From Paraspadella gotoi (Eukaryota; Animalia; Chaetognatha): a DNA stretch of 64,000 nt. How positions within the stretch are numbered: position 1 is the stretch's first letter; each line of letters starts with the position of its first letter. Under the pieces are notes generated by a model that was not told the DNA's origin, searched no databases, and worked only from the letters and a program-made list of their open reading frames with translations. The stretch spans positions 14,190,124 through 14,254,123 of the forward strand of contig CM119265.1 in assembly GCA_051294375.1 (NCBI GenBank). Reading direction: 5' to 3'. This document shows positions 486-64,000 of this stretch, one piece after another. Made by a program: the position numbers and the translations under genes.

Positions 486-3400
486 CTACTGCACCGGCGA
501 GTCGACGTCCGCAATCCCCGATTTCTCGCAAAAGATTCTCATGTCGTGGATTTCATCCCAATCCGACCACCACATGGAACCCTCCCCCCAGTCTTTGTCA
601 AGCTGGTGGGGATCCCCGGCGGAGAGATCCAGCATTGGAATGATGGCCTGGTGATGGTCATCGTCGCCTCTACCCAAGGCGGCCTGTGCCTTTTCAAGGT
701 TAGACGTCTTGGCCACGATTGTTTTACCGTTCTTCCCTTCTTTCACTGCGCAAAACCAGGATTCAAGATCTAGAAAAAAAAGAAGCCTTTTTTTTTTTAA
801 TGATTCAAGATTTCAAGATTCAACTTCAGTCGAACGTTTGAACTAATTTTTTTTTTTTCTGATAAGTAAACAGAGCAAACAAATAATTGCGGGAACTAGT
901 TATGATGTTTTTAATTGTGTCGGGGCGCAACCCAGGACCATTCTTGTTTTCATACTATATTCTTTTGCGATACAATTAATGGTTAATTTTAATATTCAAC
1001 CCCTTATCCAAATACAGGGCTCTAGGGCTGCACTCCCAGAAGGCCGGCAAAAAATGCTCAAAATTTTTTTTTAGAAAGTTCGTTTTTTCGTTAGGATATT
1101 GCATTGATGTCTTAATCTTATAAAAACATTTTTAAATCAATATTAATAAATTTCAGTTTATAAGTGGTCTTGATTTTTTTTAAATTGAAAATATATTTTA
1201 GTTTATAATAGTGGTCATGAGTTTTATAAAATTGGAAAAAAAATTGGACCCGTTCCATTGCTGCCGAGCTTACCTAGCGCCTTATCCACAATGTTACTGT
1301 AAATCTATATTATAATTGATGAGCAACATATTTTATTACGCTTGACCGCGAACAAAAAATATATACACTTTTACCAGTTCAATCAAAGACCTGGCCCTAT
1401 AACCTCACCTGGCATGCCCGAGTCTTCACAAGCACGCCTCATTTCTCTAATATGATCCCAATCTTTCCACCATATAGAGCCTTCTTCCCAGTCTCTGTCA
1501 AGCACATGGGGATCTCCAGAAAAATTATCCAGCATTGGAATGACGGACTGGGGGTTACTATCGGCGCCATGTGACAAGGCGGCCTGTGCCTTCTCAACGA
1601 TCGATGTCTTTGCCGTGATTATCATAGCTTCTCCGCGTTGGATCACCGAGCAAAACCAGTAATGAGGCTCTGAAAAGTTGTTAGGAAATAATTTATTGCA
1701 TCTGACCAACTTACCAGTTTGCTGTAAAATGCTCAAAATCTTTACATCATAAAATCATTGGCTTTAAACGTATATGCAGTTTACATAATTTACATAGATA
1801 CTGAATCAATCAAAGAACTTGCTTGCTTGTCTCACCCGGTGTGCCAGATTTTTCACAGACTTTTCTCATCTTGCAGATGTGATTCCAATCCCACCACCAC
1901 ATATTACCCTCCCCCCAGTCCTTGACGAGCTGGTGGGGATCCCCGGCAATTCCATCTATCATTGGAATTATGGCCTGGGGATGTTCTCTGTCGCCTTTCG
2001 ACAAGACGGATTGTGCTTTCTCAAGTTTTAAAGTCTTTGCTACAATGTTCAAAGTGTTGTTCCTATCTTCCACAGAGCAAAACCATGCTGTCGGCTCTAA
2101 AAAGTAGAAAAGGATAGATATTGATAGAGAAGGATAGATATAAGTATGGCCGAGAATTCAATTTGTGTAATTGCGTGACATATTTCCTTATTGCAAACGA
2201 TGCAGCGACTAACATAATTCCAGTCCCGGACATATCACCTGGCATGCCCGACTCTTCACAGGCGGTTCTCATCTTGGGGTTCTGCAGCCACTCTTTCCAC
2301 TTAAAGGAACCGTCGCTCGAATTTGCCACATCGTGCGGGTCCATGGCGTGATTATCGAGCATCGGAATGATGGCTTTGGTTAGCTGGGGGCCCACTATTG
2401 TAAAGGCGGATTCCGCCTTCTTGAGGTCAAAGGTTTTTATGGCAATATCCATTTTATCTCCGCTGTCGACCACGGAACAATACCAGCCCTTGGATTCTGA
2501 TATTCGGGAAGGGTTGAGAGAGGTGAGCGGCAAAAAAAAAAACAAAAAAAAAAACGCGGCAAGTTTAAAGACGTGACCATTTCCGACCTGGCATTCCCGC
2601 ATCTTCGCATTTCGATTTCATCTCATAAATGTGGAACCAATCTCTCCACCAATTTCGGCCCAAATTATCCTTAAGAGAGTGAGGATCTCCGGCGAAATTA
2701 TCGATCATTGGGATAATGGCTTGAGGATGGTATTCGGATCCGCGAAGCAATGATTTTTGAGCCATCTCGAGATCGTAGGTCTTCAAAACCACACCCTTCT
2801 CCTCCGTTAGGACGCAGTACCAGTGGACCGAGTCTAACCCAAAAGTATAAGCGAAAACCAAATGAAGATTGTAAAAAATTAATAATAACAATAATAATAA
2901 TAATAAGAAGAAGAAGAAGAAGAAAAAGAAGAATAAGAACAAGAAGAAGAACAAGAAGAATAACAAGAAGAAGAAGTAAATCAATCTTATATTCAAAACG
3001 AAGTTCGTTATTTTACTCGGATATCCCGAGTCCCGGCAATCTTTCTTCATTTCTTCGATCGCCATACGACAGACATCCCCACGATACAATGGTTCTCCGG
3101 CAAAGTCATCCATCATCGGAATGATGGCGTTTTTTGTCGAATGTCGCCGCGAGAGCGTCTGCTGGACTTTTTCGAGATCATAGGACTTGATTAAAATTCC
3201 GTCCTTCTCATCGGCCGCGCAGTACCACTTTTTGGGACCTGACAGGGTTCAGTGTTTTTTCTCTAAATCTCAATAAGAAAAAAAAAACTACCCAGTTAGT
3301 ATTGGCTCACCCGGTATTGCTGTATTTTCGCATTCCGCTCTGAGTTCGTTCAGCTGTGGCCAATTATTCAACCACATGGATCCATTTTTCCATTTCTGAG

Positions 3401-4996
3401 GAAGCGTGGTCGGATCTCCGGCCACGTTGCCCGACATCGGGATGATCGCTTGAGGAATGATTTCCTTTCCGCGAATCAGAGAATTTTGAGCCTCACGAAG
3501 ATGGGTTGTCTTCAAACGAATTCCTTTGTCTTTCCTAACGACGCAGTACCACTTTTGAGGTCTTTTAAGGTCTAAAAGAAGATTTTTGTTTTTTAATCGG
3601 ATCTGCTTTCAGCAAATCCCGACTCTATAATTCACTTTGTCGGTCCGTCGGTCCGCCCCCTCAATCTTGTCGGGCATTCACTTATATCATGTCAGAACAT
3701 CGAATTATGATAAATTATGCAGAAAAAACGATGTCCGTCCGACCGTCTGTCTGTCCGTCCGTCCCACCTTAGCAAAAAACATTAATTACTCGTGATTGGA
3801 TGGATGGATTGGAATAAAATTTCGTGTGTGGGTAGGGAAGTGTGTGATTGAGCTGGATATGAAGTTTCAATGGAATCGTCCGAGTGGAAATGAGTTTAAA
3901 TGGAAAAAACAAAAAAATATATTTTACTATTTGAACACCAATTACTCACGAGTGGATGGGGCGATTGACTTGAAATTTTGTATTTGGGTAGAAATGTGTG
4001 TTATTAAAGTGGAAATCAAGTTTTGATGGAATCGTTTGAGTGGAAATGAGTTTAAATGGAAAAAACAAAGAACCCGTTTCACTAATTGATTATGCTTCTT
4101 TTTCTTTTTATTTTCAATGTAAATGCAAGATGTATTAATAAATCAAATAATTAATCAGTTAATTAATCAATTAGTCAATTAATTAATCAATAATTAATTA
4201 ATCAGTTAATTAATCAATCAAAACAAACATTTTGGATCAAATTAATTATTTAATTGCATAATTAATTAAATAATTAACTTGAATAAATTAATTATTAATT
4301 AATTAAATAATTAATTAACTTGAATTAAATATTAATTATTTAATTAATTAATAAATTATAAATAATAAATAAATAAATAATTAATAAATAATAAATTAGT
4401 GGGCAGATCCGACATTGTTTGCTCAAACGTGTTTAATTTACAACTTTTTTTCCCCCTTTTTTCCCCCCGAATGTTAAGAAAATTGAGGAAGAGCGCGCGT
4501 TCACCTTGATCCTTGCAATTCGTTCCCTGGCAATCGTCATCGTCATCTGAATCGCTTTCTTCGACAGGCGGTCTTTGAGGAATTATCATTTCATTTTCTT
4601 CGCAGTCCGTGTCGTAGTAAAGCCGAATGTTTCTTTCAGAAAATAAACGTCAGAAGAGTCGAACACTACCGATTTCTTTGCTCGATTTATTCGCAAGCAG
4701 CGAACTTACCTCATCAACGCGAACCGATTCCCCTCCGTGTCCGGTGCGGCATCGTCAACGACCAACAGAAGGCAGTTCCACTCTCCGTTAATGGGTTGAG
4801 TAAACCTGACCTGACGGACGTCGTAGCCCGAAGCGAAGGAAGCTGTGGAGAGAGAATTTGAATTGGATTGTATTAAGGAAACGGGCTTTGGGCTACGTTG
4901 TGCCCCTCAAAGCTACATCAATTTACAAAATGATATTTAAGGATATAAACGAAAATCGGGTAGAGTTTTTATCCTAAACATGTTTCATGAAATCTT

Positions 4997-13461: not shown

Positions 13462-13959
13462 ATGTGTTACGTCATCGTAACCTGTCGATCCCTTCTGTGG
13501 ATGCTGCTGACGATCTCGGCGGCGCTGGCCATGATTTCCGCGGTGATAACGCCCAAGTGGCTCATCGGTGAGTGATGTGAGCCCGTTTTGGCAAAACGGG
13601 CGAGTTTATTTGTCTCGGTTTAGGTCTGGTCGTAACTCATAAGAGCCTAGAAAGGACGTAAATGACGCCGTAAATATCTTTGAGAGATACGTATCTGATC
13701 GGCGAACGGATGACGCACGGTAGACGCTCACTTTCCGTTCAAATCGATGAGTTGGTAGACGTAGTATGAAATTTTGCGAGTTGCTTTGCTTCCGCTCATA
13801 CATACATGTACATTGTACAATACATACACACATCACTCTCATGCATGTTCTCTCTTCCATAATCTCTCCCCATTTCTTTCCCAATATTCTCTTCATTTTA
13901 TTTCCTGCTTCGTAAAATGCCTTCCTCTCTCCCTCCTCACTTTTTCTCACTTCCCCTGA

Positions 13960-14027
<68 letters not shown>

Positions 14028-14949
14028 GAAGCGTTATATCTAACAAAAACGTTTGTAAGCTTTTACTTGACCACAGCGCGTCCAACTCCTACCTCCCTTT
14101 ATCTCCCTCAGGCTATCCGCGTTCCAACTTCCGCACGCCCGTCAACCCGAGCTCGGTTCGCCCTCAATTCGAGAAGGAGATCCTCGACTCGATCGCCGGC
14201 TCCTCCGAACTCGCGCTTTCGCTCGTTTCCACCGACGATAGCCAGGGGCGAGGCGAGGCACGAGACTCCTACCGCCCCACCCTCGGCCTCTACAACCGCT
14301 GCACCGTGATCCACCACGCCGACTTCCGCGGCGTGTCTTCGCAGCGTCTCCGCGAACACTGCGCCCCTTTCGTCGACTCCTTCGACATGCCCGACCGCGT
14401 GTTCCCGGACTTTTGGAAGGCGGCCATCGTCTTCTTGGGCTTGGGCCTGACTCTGCTCTCGGTGACAGTTCTTTCTAGCTTATTGGGGTGTTGCTGCAGG
14501 AGCATCTGCAAGAAGAGCATATTCACGGTGTCGGGGTTGGTGCAAGCCATCGCAGGTCGGAGGAAGTAAAAAAGTTTTATAATGCCTGGTATCTTTTTTA
14601 ATAAAACTTTATTTTATTTCTCAGGCCTGTTTTTCATTTTCGGACTCGTCATGTTCCCCGCTGGTTGGGGAAACGAGAAGGTTAGGGATTACTGCGGCCA
14701 AAACGCTGCGCCATTTGTCTTGGATCAGTGCGATCTGGGTAAGTTTTTTCAACCATTGACGAATCTCCAATGGCGCTTTAAACCGGAACCGATCCCTGTT
14801 TTCAAGGTTGGGCCTTTTACGCCGCCATGGGCTCCACGTTTCTGGTTTTCGTTTGTTCGATCCTCTCCGTTCAAGCAGAGATTTCGACCTCTAGCGACGA
14901 TGTGCAGGATGAAATTCTCAAGGGGAAGACGCTCATTTGTTTGCCATAA
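13462..14949 (+). CDS. LHFPL2: LHFPL tetraspan family member, LHFPL2-like
   Basis: Exons 13462-13567, 14112-14555, 14625-14738, about 14807-14949. N-terminus [16 protein letters not shown]...KWLIG, motifs [52 protein letters not shown] and C-terminus [25 protein letters not shown] match the LHFPL2 subfamily as I recall it. Confidence 0.93.
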
Positions 14950-15728: not shown

Positions 15729-38599
<22,871 letters not shown>

Positions 38600-39691: not shown

Positions 39692-40090
39692 CGCGTAGAA
39701 AGAATAATGGCCCCGTTAGGCGCATACACCCGCGAGACTCCGGCCCCGGTTCGAGGTAGCGAGAGCGCATCAGTTGATGCCTTCTTTTGCAATCGCAAAT
39801 GAAAAACGAGAAAGTCTCTCGGTTCCGTGGCACCCTAGGATTGGAGATACAAAGAAAAAAATTTTATCGCGTTTTCCTCGAAATTCATGTTTTGTTAATA
39901 AAAGGTAAGCATTTATTGTCTCACGTTCTCTCATCGTTTAATTATATATGCGATTTTATTCGAATACAACAAGGTTGAATAGAAACTAACTAAAAGAAAC
40001 GCTGATCAGATTTAAAATTCTGTGCTTTTTCTCTCCCACTGCTCACAACATTCCCTGTCTGCGGTTATTCCCACTAGCAGAGCCAACCCC

Positions 40091-43000
40091 ATGGAAGTGA
40101 CCCACAATGAAGGAAAGGAGGAGGCTTCCAAGGAGGCGAGTGACTCCGAAGACGAGAGCGAAATCCTGGAGGAGAGTCCCTGCGGTCGATGGCAAAAGAG
40201 GAGAGAAGAGGTAAGGAATGTGGTGAGGTGGGGGAGATGGCAGAAGATGAGAGAAGAGGTAAGTAATGTGGAGAATTGGGGGAGGTGGCAAAAGAGGAGA
40301 GAAGAGATAAGGGATGTGGTGGGATAGGGGGAAATGGCAAAAGAGGAGAGAAGTAGGGAGAGATGGCAAAAGAGGAGAGAAGAGTCAAGGTGGTTGGGTA
40401 GATAGCAAAGGAGTGATGAAGGCGAGGTGGTGAGGTGTAGGAGATGGCAAAAGAAAGGATAAGTGGTAAGACAGGTGGTATTCCGAAAACCAAAATGTCA
40501 GACGCTTGAAGTTGAAGATAAGTTTTATTCATGTCATCACTTCATTCAAAGCATCATTTTACTATATCTGTTAGGTTTTCCTACTAAACCTAGGTGCGGG
40601 CTATTCTTTTTGTATGACTTTAAGCATTATAGACGTTTAGCATCATATATAGTTGTAATATAAACGTAACATAACGAAGTATAAACGTTCAAAATAAGCA
40701 AATATCCCATTCTTTAGAACCATAATGAATTCGCGTAATAAAACCGTAAGGACAGCCGTAAAGCATCAGAAAAAGCGACCGAAAAGGGATCCGAGAAAGC
40801 AGCCGCTGGACTGTGAAACAGATTATATAACGATTTAATATAAAATGTTCGAATTATAAACGCAATAAAAACTTATTAAAAACGAATTAAGAACCATATA
40901 AACGGACCTAGTATACACGTCGAACTTTATAAAAATTTGGCGATTACATAAGCATAAAAATATACATTTTAACTTTAGAAATAAACGGCGTTGCATAAGC
41001 AGAGAATTTGGCATTAAATTCGAAGCAGCAATAAACGGTAACGTGCAGTGAAATCGTCTGTGAACCGAATTTAAAAAAATAGGACGAGAGAGAAAAAACT
41101 GGTCTCTCGCGAAAGCGGGGCAAACAAAAGATCAGAACGAAGTGACACTAGTCAATGACTAGTATGACTAGTAGTCACACTACGTTTACGTTGAATACTA
41201 TGAATAGGTTATTCTGTCTTTTGTCAAGTGTTTGTACAAATACAATGAACACTGAACACACTTTACCTAATTAATTAATTAATTAATTAATTAATTACGG
41301 AATTAAAATTTGCCATTTTTTCTTCTTTCAAACTTGTTGGCAAACGTAACACTTTCCATCACGCACGAAGTAGAAATCGAAGGTTCGGCGACATCCTTCG
41401 CAAAGAGAGACTTTCCAACCGGTCGTTCCCGCCAAACCGAACTCGATAAACAAATCGATCTTTAGCGGCAAATATTGATTCTGTTCGAACTTGTTGAAGG
41501 TTCTCGACGGGAGATCCCGGTAGTAGGCGGCGTAGATCGAGGAGACTTCGCGAGCTTTTTCCAAAAGAGCCGCGAAATCTGGGTTTTTCTTGAAAATTCT
41601 GTAGAGTTGGAAGAGACCCATGGTGTCGGACCGGCAATACTTGATCATCTCTTCGGTGATGGGGCGACTCGACCAGTATTCGCGCGAACCGATCATTTTT
41701 CCTTCCCCAATTTTCTTCTGCTTCGCAAGAGAAGAATCAACTGAGTAGTTTGCGAAGCATTTGCTCAAACCCCATAAATGGTCCACTTTTCCTCTACTAG
41801 TTGTGTCGCGCTCCTGAATTAAGGGGTGAACTTAGGTAATATTTTGCCTGATTAACTGAGCAAAGTGTTACTGAAATTGCCTAGGTAAAAAAATGATTTT
41901 TTTTTAATTAATATAGGCAATTTCTGAATCAAAATATTTTGCTTATATTTATTTTTAAAGATAAATAAAACAATATATTTTCTTTTATTGTTTTAATTTC
42001 GTTATCAACTATATTTTCAATTTGTTATTACTATATTTTAAGCCTAAAAATACTTTTCCCAGATGGCATGAAATATGAGCATCAGCATTAAGTATGTAAA
42101 CTACTTGGCTACTACCAGACCCAGAACCAATAAAATTATTAAAGAAGATTAATTCATTGATAAATAAAAAAATAACAGATAATAAAGAAATTAGTAATAA
42201 CAATAAGGATGCATACATTTAAAGAGATTTGCAATGCAATGTATCCTGATAAGATAAGATTAAAACCTTGATCAAAGATGATGTAAAAATGTACACAAGA
42301 CTCAAGACGCCCAAAAATGTTTTGTATCTTATTTAGAATGTTAAAGCTCATTAGAATTCTTTGCAGAATATGATATGGATTACTCAATACCTCCCTAGCT
42401 GATAATATTAAAAAATTCGAGCTCGATATGGAAAGTAAATATCCTATGGATATGATTTTGAAATAAAAAAATCTAAAAAAATTCTTCTATTTTTTCATCA
42501 TTAACAAAGATTTTAACTCAAAGTAATAAATGACATTCTTGAACATACTGAAAAATGTTTATCTTATTTAAAAACAACTATATAATAGACTCCAACCCCT
42601 GTCTCCAAACACCAAATACCAAACACCAAACATATTTTAGCTATTAATTTTTTTTATAAAATTATTTTATCTTTCATTAAAAACATTTGGGCTAAAACTA
42701 ATTGAATTTAAATGTTGAGCAAATTAAAGTTTTATATTTGATAAAGATTTTGTTTAGAAATTAATACAGAAAATATCCTATTTTGTTATTTTTTTAATTT
42801 TATATAAAAATTTGTGTTTTTTCCTTTCTGTTTCGTTGTGATTTGATTTAGAACAAAGTTTTGAAGAGAGATTTAACAACGATTTTTATTTCATAGTGAA
42901 ACGGACATGTTTCGACTCACATACGAGTCTTCTTTGCAAAATTACTTGTTTCACTATCTTATATTTTTATATTTTATGAATGTTTTACTATTTAAACTTT

Positions 43001-46000
43001 GTGTGTAACTCTCTCTCTCTCTCTTTCTCTCCCTCTTCTTCTTTTGTAGAAAAATTTTTGAGCATTTCACAAAAACTTTGACGCTGATGAAGGCTCAAAT
43101 TGTGAGCCGAAACATGTTTGTCTACCAATAAAAATTGTTGTTGCAATTAAATAATTCGTCTCCTTAATTTATTTAATTTATATTATTTTATTATATATAT
43201 ATTACTTTTTAAAAATATTATTTGCTTATTATATCTAATAACTCATTTTGGGAGGGGGAGGTCAGTGTTGTCTTCTGGAAATAGAAGGAGCATCTATACA
43301 ACACAAGGTTAGACTACAATAAAATACAATTAGACTACAATATTTAATTAAATATCATTTGGCTTCAAATTTTTAAAGATAACCTTTCCTTTTGAAATCT
43401 TAGCAAATTAGATCATAAGTTTATCAGTTATATCTTAGTTTTAAAGATCCTTTCCTCAATTAAAAATTGCCTACTTTTATTCAGTTAACTACTAAGTAAA
43501 CCAAAAAATTGTCTATTACCTATTAAAGAAAAAATCTTTGCCTAAGTTCACCCCTTATCCTGAATACAAATAATAAGTTCAATATTCACAACTGTCAGGC
43601 ATAAAATAGAAGCGTCGTTAAAAATAAAGAAATAAATAAAACCACCGGTCCACCAGCAGTCAATACGAAAAAGACTCAATTCCAATCTCACAAACCTTGT
43701 TTGGGTTAATTTAATAATTAAATCATAAATTTTTATTAATTTTTAATAATTTAATCATTAAATCTTAGGAATTGTTTATTGTTTGCCAATACAACGATTT
43801 TTATTAAATAAAAATCGTTGTATTGGCAAACAATAAACAATTCCTAATATTCACTTAGCAACGAAAAGAGATTTTTTATTAATTTTTTATTTTTATTTTT
43901 TATTTTTAATTTTTTATTAATTTTTANNNNNNNNNNCAGTCAATACGAAAAAAAGACTCACTTCCAATCTCACAAACCTTGTTTGGGTTAATTTAATAAT
44001 TAAATCATAAATTTTTATTAATTTTTAATAATTTAATCATTAAATCATAAATTTTTATTAATTTTTAATATTTTAATCATTAAATCATAAATTTTTATTA
44101 ATTTTTAATAATTTAATCATGAAATCATAAATTTTTCGACGGAACATGCCGGTGTAATATTTTAAATCTTTTACAAAACACTTACGTTCAAATGTTTGGT
44201 CCGATTTCTAATCGGAACCAAAGAAGTTAACCCTCTCCTCAACAAGATGTGAATAAGTTGAAGATCCAACACTCCCCGCAGCGTCACTCCCCACTGGTGA
44301 TACATCGCGTCCGAGTCGTTGCGGCAGTCGAACATCAGCTTAACAACAGCTTCGTCTTCGAGGATTCGCTTCAGCCTTTCGTCCAAAGAATCAGTCTTCA
44401 GCTCGAGCGTGTCAAAGAGATAAAGCTTCTCCGTCGTAGCGATTGACAGAATGGTGACTTTTCCTTCGCGACTGAGTTTGACCCCTTCGCAGTCGACGGC
44501 GATAAGGCGAGGCTTCTCCGGCGACATTTTCAACACTTTCTCTTGTCGCTTTTCATCGTCGTCGTCGTCGTCGTCGTCTTCGCGTTTTCGTTTGGAAAAG
44601 CTTTTATCCGGAGATTCGGCTTCGGCTGCGGTTGACGGAACCGATTCTGCCACGGTTCCTTCGACCGACGAATCCGACGGTCTGGATTCTGTCGTAGGCT
44701 GCGGCGATGAGGGAGTTTTGCTGGAGTCGCCCGATCGTGGTTCAGAAGATAATACGGTCGTCCAAAAGCTTTCTTGCGAAGGATCTTTTTCCGCTGGAGA
44801 ATTTCGTCCGATATACGCCTCCAACTCCTTGATGGCGAGATCGAGTTCCGAGGGAGACGACACCACCGCGACGTCGGAAGCGGACATTTTTCTTAATTAG
44901 TTTAGCGATTCTGGATCTTAATTTCCTTTAAAAGAAAAATATAATATCTCCGGTCCGAAGTCCGGAAGAAGTAAATAGTAGAAATCAATGGGAATAGTAT
45001 CGAGAGACATGGAATGACCGTCTGTGATTGGTCGGAATGGAATCTTCTTCAACGAATCATCATCCCTAGAAACGGCATAAAACAAGTCTTCGGGCGTCTT
45101 CCCTTACAACCGATATTTTATTTTTACTAGTTTAAAGTAAATAATTGTTCATCTATTAACCTCTTAAAACTTAGATCAACGAAGGAAACCGAGAAAAATA
45201 AAATAATGACGAGACATTTTAAAGATTTTTAGTCCCAAAAATCTTATGACAATCGACAAATAGTAAGCAGACCAAAACCTGATTTGAGGAATGTCGATAT
45301 CTTGTCTTTCTATCTCTTTTTTACTTTTCTTCTTCTTTATACGTAATATGTGCAATATGTGTAATATGTATTGTGTAGTGTTTACTTATATATTTTTGTA
45401 GTAAAAAAGTATTATTGTGATTTAGATAAAGATAAAGAGTTAAGAACAAAATATAAATCACTTTGATTGAAAAAATTATGTCTTCAGCTTCTAAAATAAT
45501 AGTTTTTATTTTAGAAGATTTTTTGTAAAATGTAATGAAAAGTGTTAATTGTAAGTAAAGTATAATTTTCCATCGTGTTTATTATCATGCGTCCACTAAA
45601 AGAGGGAGCAATAAAGTATTGTTAGATCAATAAGCTTTTATCACTCCATTCTACTGTGTACGTATATAAAGGTTAATATAAATTAAACAAGAACCAGTCT
45701 CCGACTGAACTCTAGTCATGCCTCTAGTTAATTACTATTAAAATAAATAATGTAATATTCTATGTAGATTTTGGTTGTAAAATAATGAAAAGTATCATGA
45801 CTAATTGTCTATGAGCAGTTCATTACAATTTTTCGTTTCTGATGAGATTACAAACGAGGCACATTCCTCGTCGTTCGAAGAAAAAATCATACTCTCGCCG
45901 ACAGCCATCGCATTCAAAGACACTCTCGGTCCAAGGCCCCGTCGACCCGAACTCTATGAACAAATCCAACTTGAGTGGCAGAAATCCGTTCTCTTCGAAG

Positions 46001-49000
46001 ACGTCGTTGGTTCGATTCGGGAGATCGCGGAAGAATTCCGCGTAAATACGGGACGCTTGGAAAGCGGATTCGAAGCGTGTCGTAAAGCGGGGATTCTTTT
46101 CAAAGACGTCGAAGAGATGAAAAAGACCGACCGTATTTGCATGGCAATATTGCATCATTTCGTAGGTGACGGGGCGACGATGCCAAAAATCCTTCTGGCT
46201 CTGAACTTCGTTTTCTCCCTTCTGCCTCTGAATCATGAAGGAATAGTCGACGCTATACATTCTGAAGCATTTGCTCAATCCCATCAAGTTGTCGACTAAG
46301 GAGCGAGTCGTTGATCTACGTTCCTGAAAAAAAATTTTTTTACTTCGACTACATTTATAATTTTATAACAAATGCTACAATTAAAGACTTTCCTTCATAT
46401 ATCCAATTATATTTCTCAGCGGAACAAAATCAACTAATGTTCTTCGCAAAATAATTTCCAAGAGCTCCAGATCCAGAACGCCATCTAAAAGAACATTGTG
46501 TTGACGGAACAAGGCGTTGGAGTCTAAGCGACAGTCGAACATTAACTTGACAAGGGTTTTATCTTTTATCCTTCTCAGCCTGTCGTCCATAGAACGAGTA
46601 CCCAATTGAATCAAATCGAAAATGAAGACTTTGTCCGGAATTGCGATGGAGAGGAGCGTCACTTCCCATCTACGATGACGTCGGACTCCTTGACAGGCAA
46701 CGGCGAGGACCGGGGATTCCACGGGCGCTGCTTTAGCCTTTTTACGAGGTAGTTGAGACGAGGACGCTTTTGATTCCGCATTGTCTTCCTCCTCTCGTTT
46801 CCTTTTGGTCGTCGTCGATTTCAAGAGGAATTGCGACGAAGTTGGGTCGCTCTTTGTCGTGGCCGCTCTTGAAGATTGAGATTCTTCGATAATCTTTGGT
46901 GGCGATTTCGACGCTCTCCTCAAGATCGCTTCTAACGTTTGGACGGCCCGTTCGAATTTTGATGAGGAAGAAACCACTTCCATGGCGGATGTGGACATCT
47001 TCGCGGATGAATCCACGTTGATATCATCGTATCATTTGAATCCCGAAAAATCCGAAAAACATTTTGTTGTCGTCGATGCCGATTGTCGATTTCTCAGAAT
47101 TGCGAACACAAATTTCCCAGAATTCACAGACATTACAGAATTTCTCGGAAATAGCACGTTTTAATTATTTTGTTTTTCACCTTATTAGTATCACTCCAGT
47201 ACGAACAAAGGAACATTTTTCGGGAATAAGCAAGGCCAAGGGAATATAATTTTTGTAAACCCTCCAAAAAGTATTCACAATGATTTTACATTTAATTAAT
47301 TAATATGAAACAATGAGAAAGATAAGTTTTATTCCCTTTTCGAGTTATACCGTAATACCGTAGTGCTCTGTTACCAGGTGAAGCAGCGGGATGTACCCGG
47401 CATCGATGTGGCCTACCTCGCCATGGACACCGAAGAGGGCGTCGAGGTTGTTTGGAACGAGACCCAGTTCTCCGACAGGCGGAGGAACTTCAAGGAGCAA
47501 GAGAAGAAGATCCGGAAGATCTTCGACAACCTCATCCGACTCGAGCATCCCAACATCGTCAAGTTCCACAAATACTGGACAGACACAGAATCAGAGGAGA
47601 AGCCAAGAGTGGTGAGAAAAATTTTTTTTATTGAATATATATATATATATATATATTTACTTTCGCCGACTGGGTTTGGGAGGGGTAAGGGTTAACAATG
47701 ATTTAAGGGTGGTTACCACTGGTTCGGGCCAGGGTTAGGGTAATTGGGTAATATTTTTAAATAATTTTTTAAAAGCCGCCATAACCGCGGTCGGCGAAAG
47801 TAAAATTTAGCCATATATTGTATATATTAATTTTTTAAGATTAAGCGATTGATTGATCGACCAGTGAATTTAACCTCACATTCCACACTGTTTTATCCAG
47901 GTGTTCATAACCGAGTACATGTCGTCAGGTTCGCTGCGATCGTTCTTGAGGAAAACCAAAATGAACAACAAAAGTCTCTCGGAAAAAACGTGGAAACTAT
48001 GGTGCACTCAGATTTTGTCAGCGTTGAGGTAATCAGAGGATTTTTTTTAAAAAATACTGTAATAAAGCTTATTTTTATTTCGAGATAACCTGCAATTATG
48101 TACCTAATTTAAAAAGTAATCAGTATAATCCTTACATTGTGTTTTTAGTCTTTCTTTTTCGTTGCGTTAGAATATTTAGTGAAAAGTTTAAATTGGATTT
48201 CACAACGATTTTATTTGTATTAATGAACAGGCATGTTTACGAGTCTTCATCAGCGTTAACGTAAATCTCAGAGTCGAAACATGTCCGTTCATTAATACAA
48301 ATAAAATCGTTGTGAAATCCAATTTAAACTTTTCACTAAAATCCTTACATTATAAAATTGTAATTTTTACAGCTATCTCCACGCTTGCGATCCGCCAATC
48401 ATCCACGGCAATCTCGCCTGCGACACGATCTTCATCCAACACAATGGACTGGTTAAGATCGGCAGCGTCGCTCCCGAGGCGATCCACCACCACGTCAAAA
48501 CTTGCAGAGAGGAAAAAAAGAACATGCATTACATCGCCCCGGAGTACGCAGGTTGAAAAATCTTCGTAGGCATCCTCGTCTACTTTTTAGATGTAATTTT
48601 TCCAGATGTTCTGAACTCATAAATTTATGAACTTTTCACGAAGAATAAATTTGTTGCCCGAGCACCTCTTAAAATCTGTTTGCCGGCAGGTATGGAGGAG
48701 CCTTCCCCCGCGGCTGACATCTACTCCTTCGGCGTCTGTGCCCTCGTTATGGCAGCGTTGGAGTTGAGCGAATGCAACTTCGTCGCCGACGACGTCCTCG
48801 ACGCCGCCGTCGACAAGATCGACAACCCGTTGCAGAGAGACTTTATCAAGTGAGAAAGACAACGTTCGAATGAGATGGTGGGAAGGGAAGGTCTAATCAC
48901 GGTTTACAATCCTTAAATGCTATAATTTCACTATTTCATTTTGGATCGAATTGTTACGCTTTCCCTTCGTAGGCGCTGCCTCTCCCAGGATCCGCGATCG

Positions 49001-51064: not shown

Positions 51065-64000
<12,936 letters not shown>

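What the first reader, a model, noticed from the sequence alone, without database searches (positions are those of the whole stretch)
41328..46998. Active plus catalytically dead DEDDy exonuclease pair with a C-terminal zinc-ribbon motif, hidden antisense in an NRBP intron
Seen: two tandem two-exon paralogs share the intron position, a disordered insert with an NLS-like KRKRE(D/E) and a CxxC-x13-CxxC tail. A has DCE / D / YxxxD. B has three catalytic substitutions (ACQ; YCHAN) but keeps both frames open, the surrounding motifs (FDCRLDS, VLDLEL, W.RRP.T.EM..YC) and all four cysteines despite high divergence. Established: the EXD1/Egalitarian subfamily includes non-catalytic RNA-binding members acting in piRNA biogenesis and mRNA transport, and EXD1 dimerises. 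Inference: an enzyme/pseudoenzyme module, possibly nuclear small-RNA trimming or transposon defence; I do not know the C4 tail from characterised members.
Basis: partly seen in the sequence, partly recalled or inferred. Interest (0 to 1): 0.78.

Follow-up and report, generated by a model that had tools for sequence, protein, structure and literature searches.

The report
RNA-trimming enzyme and its decaying twin
Inside an intron of an animal NRBP gene sit two copies of a predicted RNA-trimming enzyme: one keeps its active site; the other lost it, likely persisted for a long time as a non-cutting RNA-binding protein, and gives a broken main transcript in both RNA samples examined.

Summary
The anatomy is real. 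A (395 aa) and B (368 aa if spliced) are sister paralogs antisense in NRBP intron 1. A keeps D-E-D-Y-D; B reads A-Q-D-Y-N. Three corrections. (1) Neither is EXD1 or Egalitarian. They belong to a family found in cnidarians, molluscs, echinoderms and fungi, mostly intact, whose closest solved structures are trypanosome RNase D and Egl. The C4 tail is a family trait and looks treble-clef-like, not ribbon-like. (2) B's intron donor is GA, not GT. One RNA sample retains the intron (stop at residue 205). The other splices it but carries a 7-nt frameshift. No full-length B transcript was seen. (3) The A–B dN/dS is about 0.2–0.3, and neutral decay explains the loss of 3 of 4 acids poorly. B was therefore probably a constrained pseudoenzyme that is now decaying, with different lesions in different samples. 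Dead paralogs recur in about six other lineages. A:B binding is untested. New variant of a known kind; moderate interest.

The parts
44186..44887 (-). Gene A exon 1 (aa 1-234): N-terminal helix, ~100-aa low-complexity insert with KRKRED (44579-44593), ExoI D132/E134 (44486-44494), ExoII D191 (44315-44317)
   Evidence: spliced to exon 2 in X9, X6, X7
41814..44185 (-). Gene A intron, GT-AG, 2372 nt as assembled; holds repeats and a 10-N gap (43927-43936) with duplicated flanks
   Evidence: (skip of 2372 in X9 and X6)
41328..41813 (-). Gene A exon 2 (aa 235-395): ExoIII Y293/D297 (41625-41639), linker, C4 finger (41340-41402)
46393..46998 (-). Gene B exon 1 (aa 1-202): insert with KRKREE (46792-46806), dead ExoI A-C-Q (46690-46698), ExoII D kept; RI-KD here versus family-type RILED in X8/X9 (46564-46567)
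46324..46392 (-). Gene B intron, 69 nt, non-canonical GA donor (46391-46392), in-frame stop inside; retained in sample S3 RNA, skipped in X9
45823..46323 (-). Gene B exon 2: ExoIII D>N (46135-46137), C4 finger intact (45850-45912); 7 nt left out at 46213 in X9 (frameshift)
44927..45822 (-). Probable B 3' UTR; poly(A)-like loose ends at 44927 (X6) and 44947 (X7), 40-60 nt upstream of A's ATG
   Evidence: tables 7 and 8
40211..47377 (+). Host NRBP intron 1 (7167 nt, GT-AG) that holds both genes on the opposite strand
   Evidence: X7 loose end at 47376 is the end of NRBP exon 1; NRBP name from the translated sequence and recall, kinase-like Pfam hit only at E 0.0016, below the curated cut-off

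Best explanation
A has an intact DEDDy active site and is likely a 3'-5' exoribonuclease whose C-terminal C4 finger likely helps hold RNA; its tandem duplicate B lost three of four catalytic acids, likely survived for a long time as a non-cutting RNA-binding protein, and is likely now a dispensable, decaying gene, since both RNA samples give truncated main transcripts. Shown: the gene structures, the residues, the sister relationship, transcription, the GA donor, intron retention in one sample and a frameshift in another. Inferred: (i) A trims RNA 3' ends by two-metal catalysis, by analogy with trypanosome RNase D, which shares the Exo + linker + C-terminal zinc finger layout. (ii) The lineage-specific KRKR insert directs both proteins to the nucleus. 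(iii) B's catalytic loss came before its ORF-breaking lesions, because the catalytic changes are shared by every sample whose differences were listed in full, while the lesions differ between samples. (iv) B's former job was RNA binding or substrate shielding rather than obligate partnership with A.
For: A+B form one clade with UFBoot 100; branch lengths are A 0.49 and B 0.73. Core dN is about 0.40-0.43 and dS about 1.4-2.2; bootstrap dN/dS is 0.19-0.41 over the 189 of 300 replicates that were not saturated. B keeps 21 of 26 near-invariant non-catalytic columns and all 4 Cys but only 1 of 4 acids (Fisher p 0.048-0.063). Neutral decay reaches 3 or more of 4 acids changed with no stop with joint probability at most 6.6e-4 at any time tested. 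X6/X7 (one sample) hold B unbroken through the intron with 0 differences, while A and NRBP are spliced in the same runs. X9 skips the intron but has a 7-nt gap giving about 255 aa without ExoIII or C4. The window allele also lacks a Leu kept in 123 of 130 homologs, which X8 and X9 retain. The model of the relative P0003 (pLDDT 82.6) matches trypanosome RNase D best (Z 24.4, rmsd 2.9, 231 aligned), about level with Egl (Z 23.4), then EXD1 (Z 20.1). The zinc-finger domain of that enzyme boosts RNA binding and cleavage (PMC7797062, passages).
Against: Logan contigs drop minor forms, so a minority spliced form in S3 or an intact second allele in X9 could be hidden. X8 (DNA) has RILED and no 7-nt gap, and its donor is not covered (hole 46343-46411), so an intact allele may segregate. 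B's donor context AG|GAA fits the context reported for supported GA-AG introns (PMC7072748, passages). X9's own donor base is unknown. B's contigs are deep in S3 (79 and 66 versus 15 and 12 for A; the tool warns that depth cannot rank genes). dS is near saturation, and the pairwise ratio averages both branches. The Fisher test is borderline. The relative-rate excess of B is not significant with any of 7 outgroups (best p 0.059). The neutral model uses A as a stand-in for the starting gene and was chosen after seeing the data. No activity, localisation or binding was measured.
Confidence: 0.5

Rival explanations
1. B is a living pseudoenzyme. An intact allele or a weak GA-AG intron spliced only in some tissues makes full-length B, which binds RNA or A and tunes A's trimming, and the broken forms are minor alleles or an off state.
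For: Purifying-selection signature. X8 may carry an intact allele. The intron is skipped at exactly the homologous position in X9, and GA-AG splicing is documented in animals (PMC7072748, passages). Dead paralogs persist elsewhere: the Mytilus cluster is 97-98% identical across members with G-E/Q-P-F-T at the catalytic sites, and there are dead copies in three scallops and in Mya. EXD1 is a precedent for a dead Exo domain that binds RNA (PMC4712191, passages).
Against: 0 of 2 RNA samples show a full-length main transcript. Three different lesions (GA donor, loss of a conserved Leu, 7-nt frameshift) occur among five samples. B keeps fewer conserved non-catalytic columns (21 of 26) than any of 60 intact homologs (minimum 23).
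Confidence: 0.27
2. B was an ordinary active duplicate that died recently and is a plain transcribed pseudogene; the catalytic changes are chance decay.
For: B's branch is longer, non-catalytic conserved residues near ExoI are also lost (L>R, G>W), and the enrichment for catalytic loss is only borderline.
Against: Neutral time long enough to hit 3 of 4 acids nearly always brings stops. The catalytic changes are shared across samples while the ORF lesions are not.
Confidence: 0.13
3. B is now kept for its RNA. Its long polyadenylated transcript runs antisense through NRBP intron 1 and ends at A's 5' end, and would regulate A or NRBP in cis or give A a read-through precursor.
For: B's poly(A)-like ends lie 40-60 nt upstream of A's ATG. 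An X9 contig runs from B into A exon 1. NRBP contigs with 5' extensions reach 46932 (X6) and 47249 (X9), near or over B's start.
Against: A contig across two genes does not show one transcript. Compact gene spacing alone explains the overlap. No Rfam family reaches its gathering score in 40000-48400. There is no perturbation evidence.
Confidence: 0.1

Closest known systems
Trypanosoma brucei RNase D (TbRND, PDB 7C42/7C45; PMC7797062)
   Same: Top structural match of the family model (Foldseek E 9e-13; Z 24.4). The profile match runs through the linker to the start of the zinc finger. Layout is active DEDDy + linker + C-terminal zinc finger.
   Different: TbRND has four CCHC fingers and trims guide-RNA U-tails; here there is a single C4 finger and a basic/acidic insert. 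Identity is about 20%.
Drosophila Egalitarian Exo domain (PDB 9UJU/9RVY; bioRxiv 10.1101/2025.08.03.668247)
   Same: Best sequence match among solved structures (E 1.7e-17; 2.5e-36 by profile). [quoted passage not shown]
   Different: Egl is about 1000 aa with a 500-aa N-terminal BicD-binding region, a helical EHD domain and a dynein light chain motif; A and B are under 400 aa and end in a C4 finger.
EXD1 (Bombyx 5FIQ, mouse; PMC4712191)
   Same: Related Exo fold (E 3.8e-13; Z 20.1). Like B, it has lost the catalytic acids; it binds RNA through the dead core.
   Different: EXD1 has an N-terminal Lsm domain that binds TDRD12 and a three-helix dimer hook. A and B have no Lsm hit, A is intact, and B's loss is independent, since B is sister to A.
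Database 'piRNA biogenesis protein EXD1-like' proteins of Exaiptasia, Dendronephthya, Clytia, Mytilus, Mya, scallops, Lingula, Lineus, Patiria, Acanthaster; 'ribonuclease H-like' of Guyanagaster
   Same: This is the actual family: 39-42% identity to A over 270-300 aa for the best matches, with the same C4 tail.
   Different: The names are automatic. The 73-104-aa insert after the first helix is found only in A and B (median 3.5 residues among 72 aligned proteins). Cys spacing is usually 20, and 13 here.
Stc1 domain (PF12898; fission yeast Stc1, PMC2875855)
   Same: 13 of 18 first relatives hit the domain weakly (best E 8e-4). Stc1's LIM-like fingers are needed for its association with Ago1.
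   Different: The one score shown (P0001, 15.1 bits) is below the 24.8 cut-off and covers only the last third of the profile. A and B themselves give no Stc1 hit at E up to 1.

Membership tests
DEDDy 3'-5' exonuclease (gene A) | D-x-E, D, Y-xxx-D in an RNase D-type fold | tested here: met
   D132, E134, D191, Y293, D297; PF01612 above cut-off; fold of relative P0003
DEDDy 3'-5' exonuclease (gene A) | Metal-dependent exonuclease activity | not testable with these tools
   needs an assay
DEDDy 3'-5' exonuclease (gene B) | Four catalytic acids | tested here: not met
   A, Q, D, N; no difference at these codons in X1, X6, X7, X8, X9
EXD1 | N-terminal Lsm domain | tested here: not met
   No Lsm family at E up to 1 on either exon 1; the N-terminus is about 25 aa that align to the Exo's first strand and helix, plus a low-complexity insert
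EXD1 | Catalytic acids absent | tested here: inconclusive
   Not met by A; met by B through an independent loss
EXD1 | Homodimer through a C-terminal three-helix hook | not tested
   The complex prediction queue was full; no job ran
EXD1 | TDRD12/PIWI complex, piRNA role | not testable with these tools
   needs experiment
Egalitarian | About 500-aa N-terminal BicD-binding region, EHD and dynein light chain motif | tested here: not met
   A is 395 aa with about 127 aa before ExoI and ends in a C4 finger; Egl layout from passages. An upstream coding exon was not seen in the RNA contigs
Trypanosome RNase D (TbRND) | Exo domain plus linker | tested here: met
   model 74-334 aligns to 7c42 52-292, Z 24.4; profile match 9-302 of 335
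Trypanosome RNase D (TbRND) | Four CCHC zinc fingers | tested here: not met
   single CxxC-x13-CxxC; no zf-CCHC hit
Stc1 domain | Pfam PF12898 at the curated cut-off, tandem fingers | tested here: inconclusive
   weak hits in 13 of 18 relatives, none in A or B; one finger only; the tail model found no significant structural match
C4-tailed 'EXD1-like' subfamily (unnamed) | FDCRxD motif, W..RP, YC..D, S..Y..R helix, C4 tail, nesting in the animal clade | tested here: met

The most novel reading that the evidence does not exclude
A widespread, misannotated subfamily of RNase D-like exoribonucleases, found from fungi to echinoderms, uses an Stc1-like C4 finger to dock on Argonaute or RNA. It repeatedly spawns catalytically dead paralogs (this pair, Mya, Mytilus, scallops) that shield or hand over small-RNA 3' ends, replaying the origin of EXD1. 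Here full-length B is switched on through a weak GA-AG intron.
Probability: 0.12. Interest if true: 0.72.

Novelty: new variant of a known kind. Interest (0 to 1): 0.4.

Why it matters
The pair is a small natural experiment in how a nuclease becomes an RNA-binding pseudoenzyme and is then lost, the route that EXD1 and Exuperantia took (bioRxiv 10.1101/2025.08.03.668247, passages). More usefully, many invertebrate proteins named 'piRNA biogenesis protein EXD1-like' appear to be a separate, mostly intact, zinc-finger-tailed group built like trypanosome RNase D, with recurrent dead copies. Five full-text searches listed no paper on it, though the library lacks most subscription journals. If A trims small RNAs, it adds an unstudied nuclease to invertebrate RNA silencing. 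As it stands, the most exciting reading (a working enzyme/pseudoenzyme module) is weakened by the broken B transcripts.

Tried and rejected
No whole genome is held, so other paralogs and the genome-wide frequency of GA donors were not checked. The NRBP and A introns examined here have GT donors. The run search listed no holder on record as RNA; X9, X6 and X7 were treated as RNA because they splice A and NRBP, and X6/X7 also show poly(A)-like ends. Alternative GT/GC donors for B: 22 in-frame donor-acceptor pairs exist, and none appears as a joint in the RNA contigs. B's joint as genomic intron loss is unlikely: X1, X5, X6 and X7 hold the intron and X8 holds its 3' part, but a 5-nt repeat flanks it and no DNA of X9's sample exists. 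The search for longer homologs scored none of 283 candidates. The search for B orthologs found 1 distant protein among 253 candidates. True EXD1 and Egl sequences were therefore not in my trees, and their relation rests on HMM and structure scores. The P0027/P0035 'dead + active pair' was dropped because cluster member P0172 has the Asp. The tail model had no Foldseek match at E up to 0.001 (weak C2H2, MYND and PHD rows) and no Z of 5 or more. The Atlas gave no usable hit for the tail. The dimer prediction never ran because the queue was full, so there is no verdict on binding. Branch-specific substitution counts from reconstructed ancestors were not available, so the timing of B's changes rests on the pairwise ratio, branch lengths and allele comparison. 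The 3' flanks of A and B show no significant similarity. Rfam hits in 40000-48400 are all below gathering scores and the strongest lie on palindromic repeats. Earlier-findings look-ups returned nothing. PMC4778953 and PMC5408684 (passages) did not describe this family. No supplements were read; supplementary phylogenies could bear on the claim that the family is undescribed.
Full report
Observation. Both genes lie on the minus strand inside intron 1 (40211-47377) of an NRBP-like gene of an invertebrate animal. The lineage was not determined, and the NRBP name comes from the translated exons and recall. Spliced by coordinates, A is 395 aa and B 368 aa, 50% identical over the core, with the intron at the same place. 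A has D132, E134, D191, Y293 and D297. B has A, Q, D, Y and N from codons GCC, CAA, GAC, TAT and AAT, and all four tail cysteines. Both carry a low-complexity insert with KRKRE after the first helix, 104 and 73 residues long against a median of 3.5 among 72 aligned proteins.

B's intron begins AAG|GAAAGT. Of the registers that fit the 69-nt skip, only GA..AG ends in AG. DNA run X1 matches the window with 0 differences over 44595-47340. I laid six runs from five samples in two calls. X6 and X7 (one sample) splice A and NRBP and show poly(A)-like ends at 44927 and 44947, but carry B as one unbroken contig through the intron with 0 differences; that form stops at 205 aa. X9 (another study) splices A, NRBP and B, but has 7 nt left out at 46213, giving about 255 aa without ExoIII or the finger. 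X9 and the DNA run X8 read RILED where the window reads RI-KD. That Leu is kept in 123 of 130 homologs, so the window allele is the derived one. X8 lacks the 7-nt gap and its donor is not covered, so it may be intact. X5 has one substitution and one gap in this region that were not listed. The catalytic changes are unchanged in X1, X6, X7, X8 and X9. Contigs hide minor forms, so these are statements about main forms only. GA-AG introns with this flanking context are supported by RNA-seq in some animals (PMC7072748, passages), so a weak functional donor is possible.

Family. The search with A's Exo region gave 21 proteins among 81 candidates; those with names are cnidarian 'EXD1-like' proteins. 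An alignment of 18 of them shows invariant DCEG, FDCR.D, W..RP, Y...D and the C4 tail in most rows. The profile found 5996 representatives at E up to 0.001, of which the best 150 were returned. Of 168 proteins in hand, 130 of 250-480 aa were aligned, and 60 have intact DEDYD plus four Cys. I looked up 30 of them; the named ones are bivalves, a brachiopod, a nemertean, sea stars and a basidiomycete. The Atlas lists basidiomycete and echinoderm clusters at 0.96-0.98. Fungi lack the piRNA pathway (recalled), so the family is not piRNA-specific. A and B are sisters (FastTree 1.0; UFBoot 100 on 18 selected sequences), nested among the animal members, so this is a lineage-specific tandem duplication. 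Among 70 homologs with ExoI and all four Cys, 10 have at least one catalytic acid changed and 7 have at least two. Such sequences fall in about six separate clades besides B, after dropping P0027, whose cluster mate is intact, and P0127, a D>E change. They include a Mytilus cluster conserved at 97-98%, three scallops, and a Mya copy 64% identical to an intact Mya protein on a contig of the same length. Deep supports in that tree are uneven.

Structure. Joined A could not be folded, so the closest relative P0003 was folded with 81 sequences (pLDDT 82.6). Its top matches are trypanosome RNase D (Z 24.4, rmsd 2.9, 231 aligned), Egl (23.4), E. coli RNase D (20.8) and EXD1 (20.1). By sequence Egl scores best, but only TbRND matches through the linker up to the finger. 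In TbRND the C-terminal fingers raise RNA binding and cleavage (PMC7797062, passages). A's last 83 residues fold as helix, loop, short helix, then short strands ending in a helix (pLDDT 83.2). That reads as treble-clef-like rather than a zinc ribbon (my reading), with no significant structural match. Relatives hit Pfam Stc1 weakly (13 of 18, best E 8e-4); A and B do not. This is a lead only. EXD1 is defined by an Lsm domain, lost acids and a dimer hook (PMC4712191, passages), and Egl by a long BicD-binding N-terminus. Neither fits as membership.

Selection on B. Core dN is about 0.40-0.43 and dS about 1.4-2.2. The bootstrap ratio is 0.19-0.41, with 111 of 300 replicates saturated. A neutral B since the duplication would alone exceed the total dN. 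B keeps 21 of 26 near-invariant non-catalytic columns (A keeps 25; intact homologs keep 23-26) but only 1 of 4 acids (p 0.048; 0.052-0.063 at looser thresholds). Its branch is 1.5-2 times A's, but relative-rate tests are not significant with 7 of 7 outgroups. Under neutral point substitution from an A-like gene, the joint chance of 3 or more acids changed and no stop peaks at 6.6e-4 (post hoc, no indels). So the active site was most likely lost while the protein was still needed, with some general relaxation, and the ORF-breaking lesions are younger and differ between samples.

Mechanism. A is likely an RNase D-type 3' trimmer aided by its finger and possibly nuclear through the KRKR insert; all three points are inferred. 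B likely served as a non-cutting RNA binder and is now being lost (0.5). Rivals are a living pseudoenzyme made from an intact allele or a regulated GA intron (0.27), plain recent pseudogenisation (0.13) and an RNA-level role (0.10). Physical pairing of A and B is untested.

Verdict. The feature is real and partly misread. It is a new variant of a known kind: an uncharacterised C4-tailed RNase D/Egl-like subfamily with recurrent dead paralogs, here apparently caught in decay. Five literature searches listed no description of the subfamily; I saw listings and passages only, no supplements. Interest 0.40.

Noticed in passing
window 40201-40490 (+): Five decaying ~48-nt tandem copies of the end of NRBP exon 1, the first with its donor (..GAAGAG|GTAAG), at the start of intron 1; possible alternative donors or a duplicated exon end (D4/D5).
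   Followed up: no
window 48175-48340, 43720-43892, 47656-47804: Palindromic MITE-like elements in introns (64-nt arms at 97% in the first); the bins holding them show raised depth in DNA runs, so they are likely genome-wide repeats; they account for the strongest weak Rfam miRNA hits.
   Followed up: partly
window 43668-44066: 10-N gap with a 117-nt stretch duplicated on both sides (91%): likely an assembly overlap in A's intron.
   Followed up: partly
window 44926-44947 (-): B's poly(A)-like ends coincide with a pyrimidine-rich tract and AG about 40 nt upstream of A's ATG, an operon-like spacing; contigs run continuously from B's 3' UTR into A.
   Followed up: partly
window 46932-47377 (+): NRBP contigs in X6 and X9 start inside intron 1 (46932, 47249) and splice downstream: a possible alternative 5' end overlapping B's start head to head.
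   Followed up: no
P0061/P0175/P0176 (Mytilus), P0075 (Mya), P0023/P0031/P0042 (scallops): Catalytically altered members of the same family kept across bivalve species, better test cases for a living pseudoenzyme than B.
   Followed up: partly
window 13916-14566, 28765-34259, 54374-54775, 58009-58398, 61614-61931: Neighbouring genes by Pfam: LHFPL-like, laminin EGF repeats, M14 carboxypeptidase, lytic polysaccharide monooxygenase (LPMO_10), TBC RabGAP; 7 of 15 ORFs scanned had hits.
   Followed up: partly
window 500-3600 (-): Several diverged repeats of a 'WFCSV...KT..LEKAQ..L..G....QAIIPM' unit in successive exons, with no Pfam hit for the one ORF scanned; an unexplained repeat protein.
   Followed up: no
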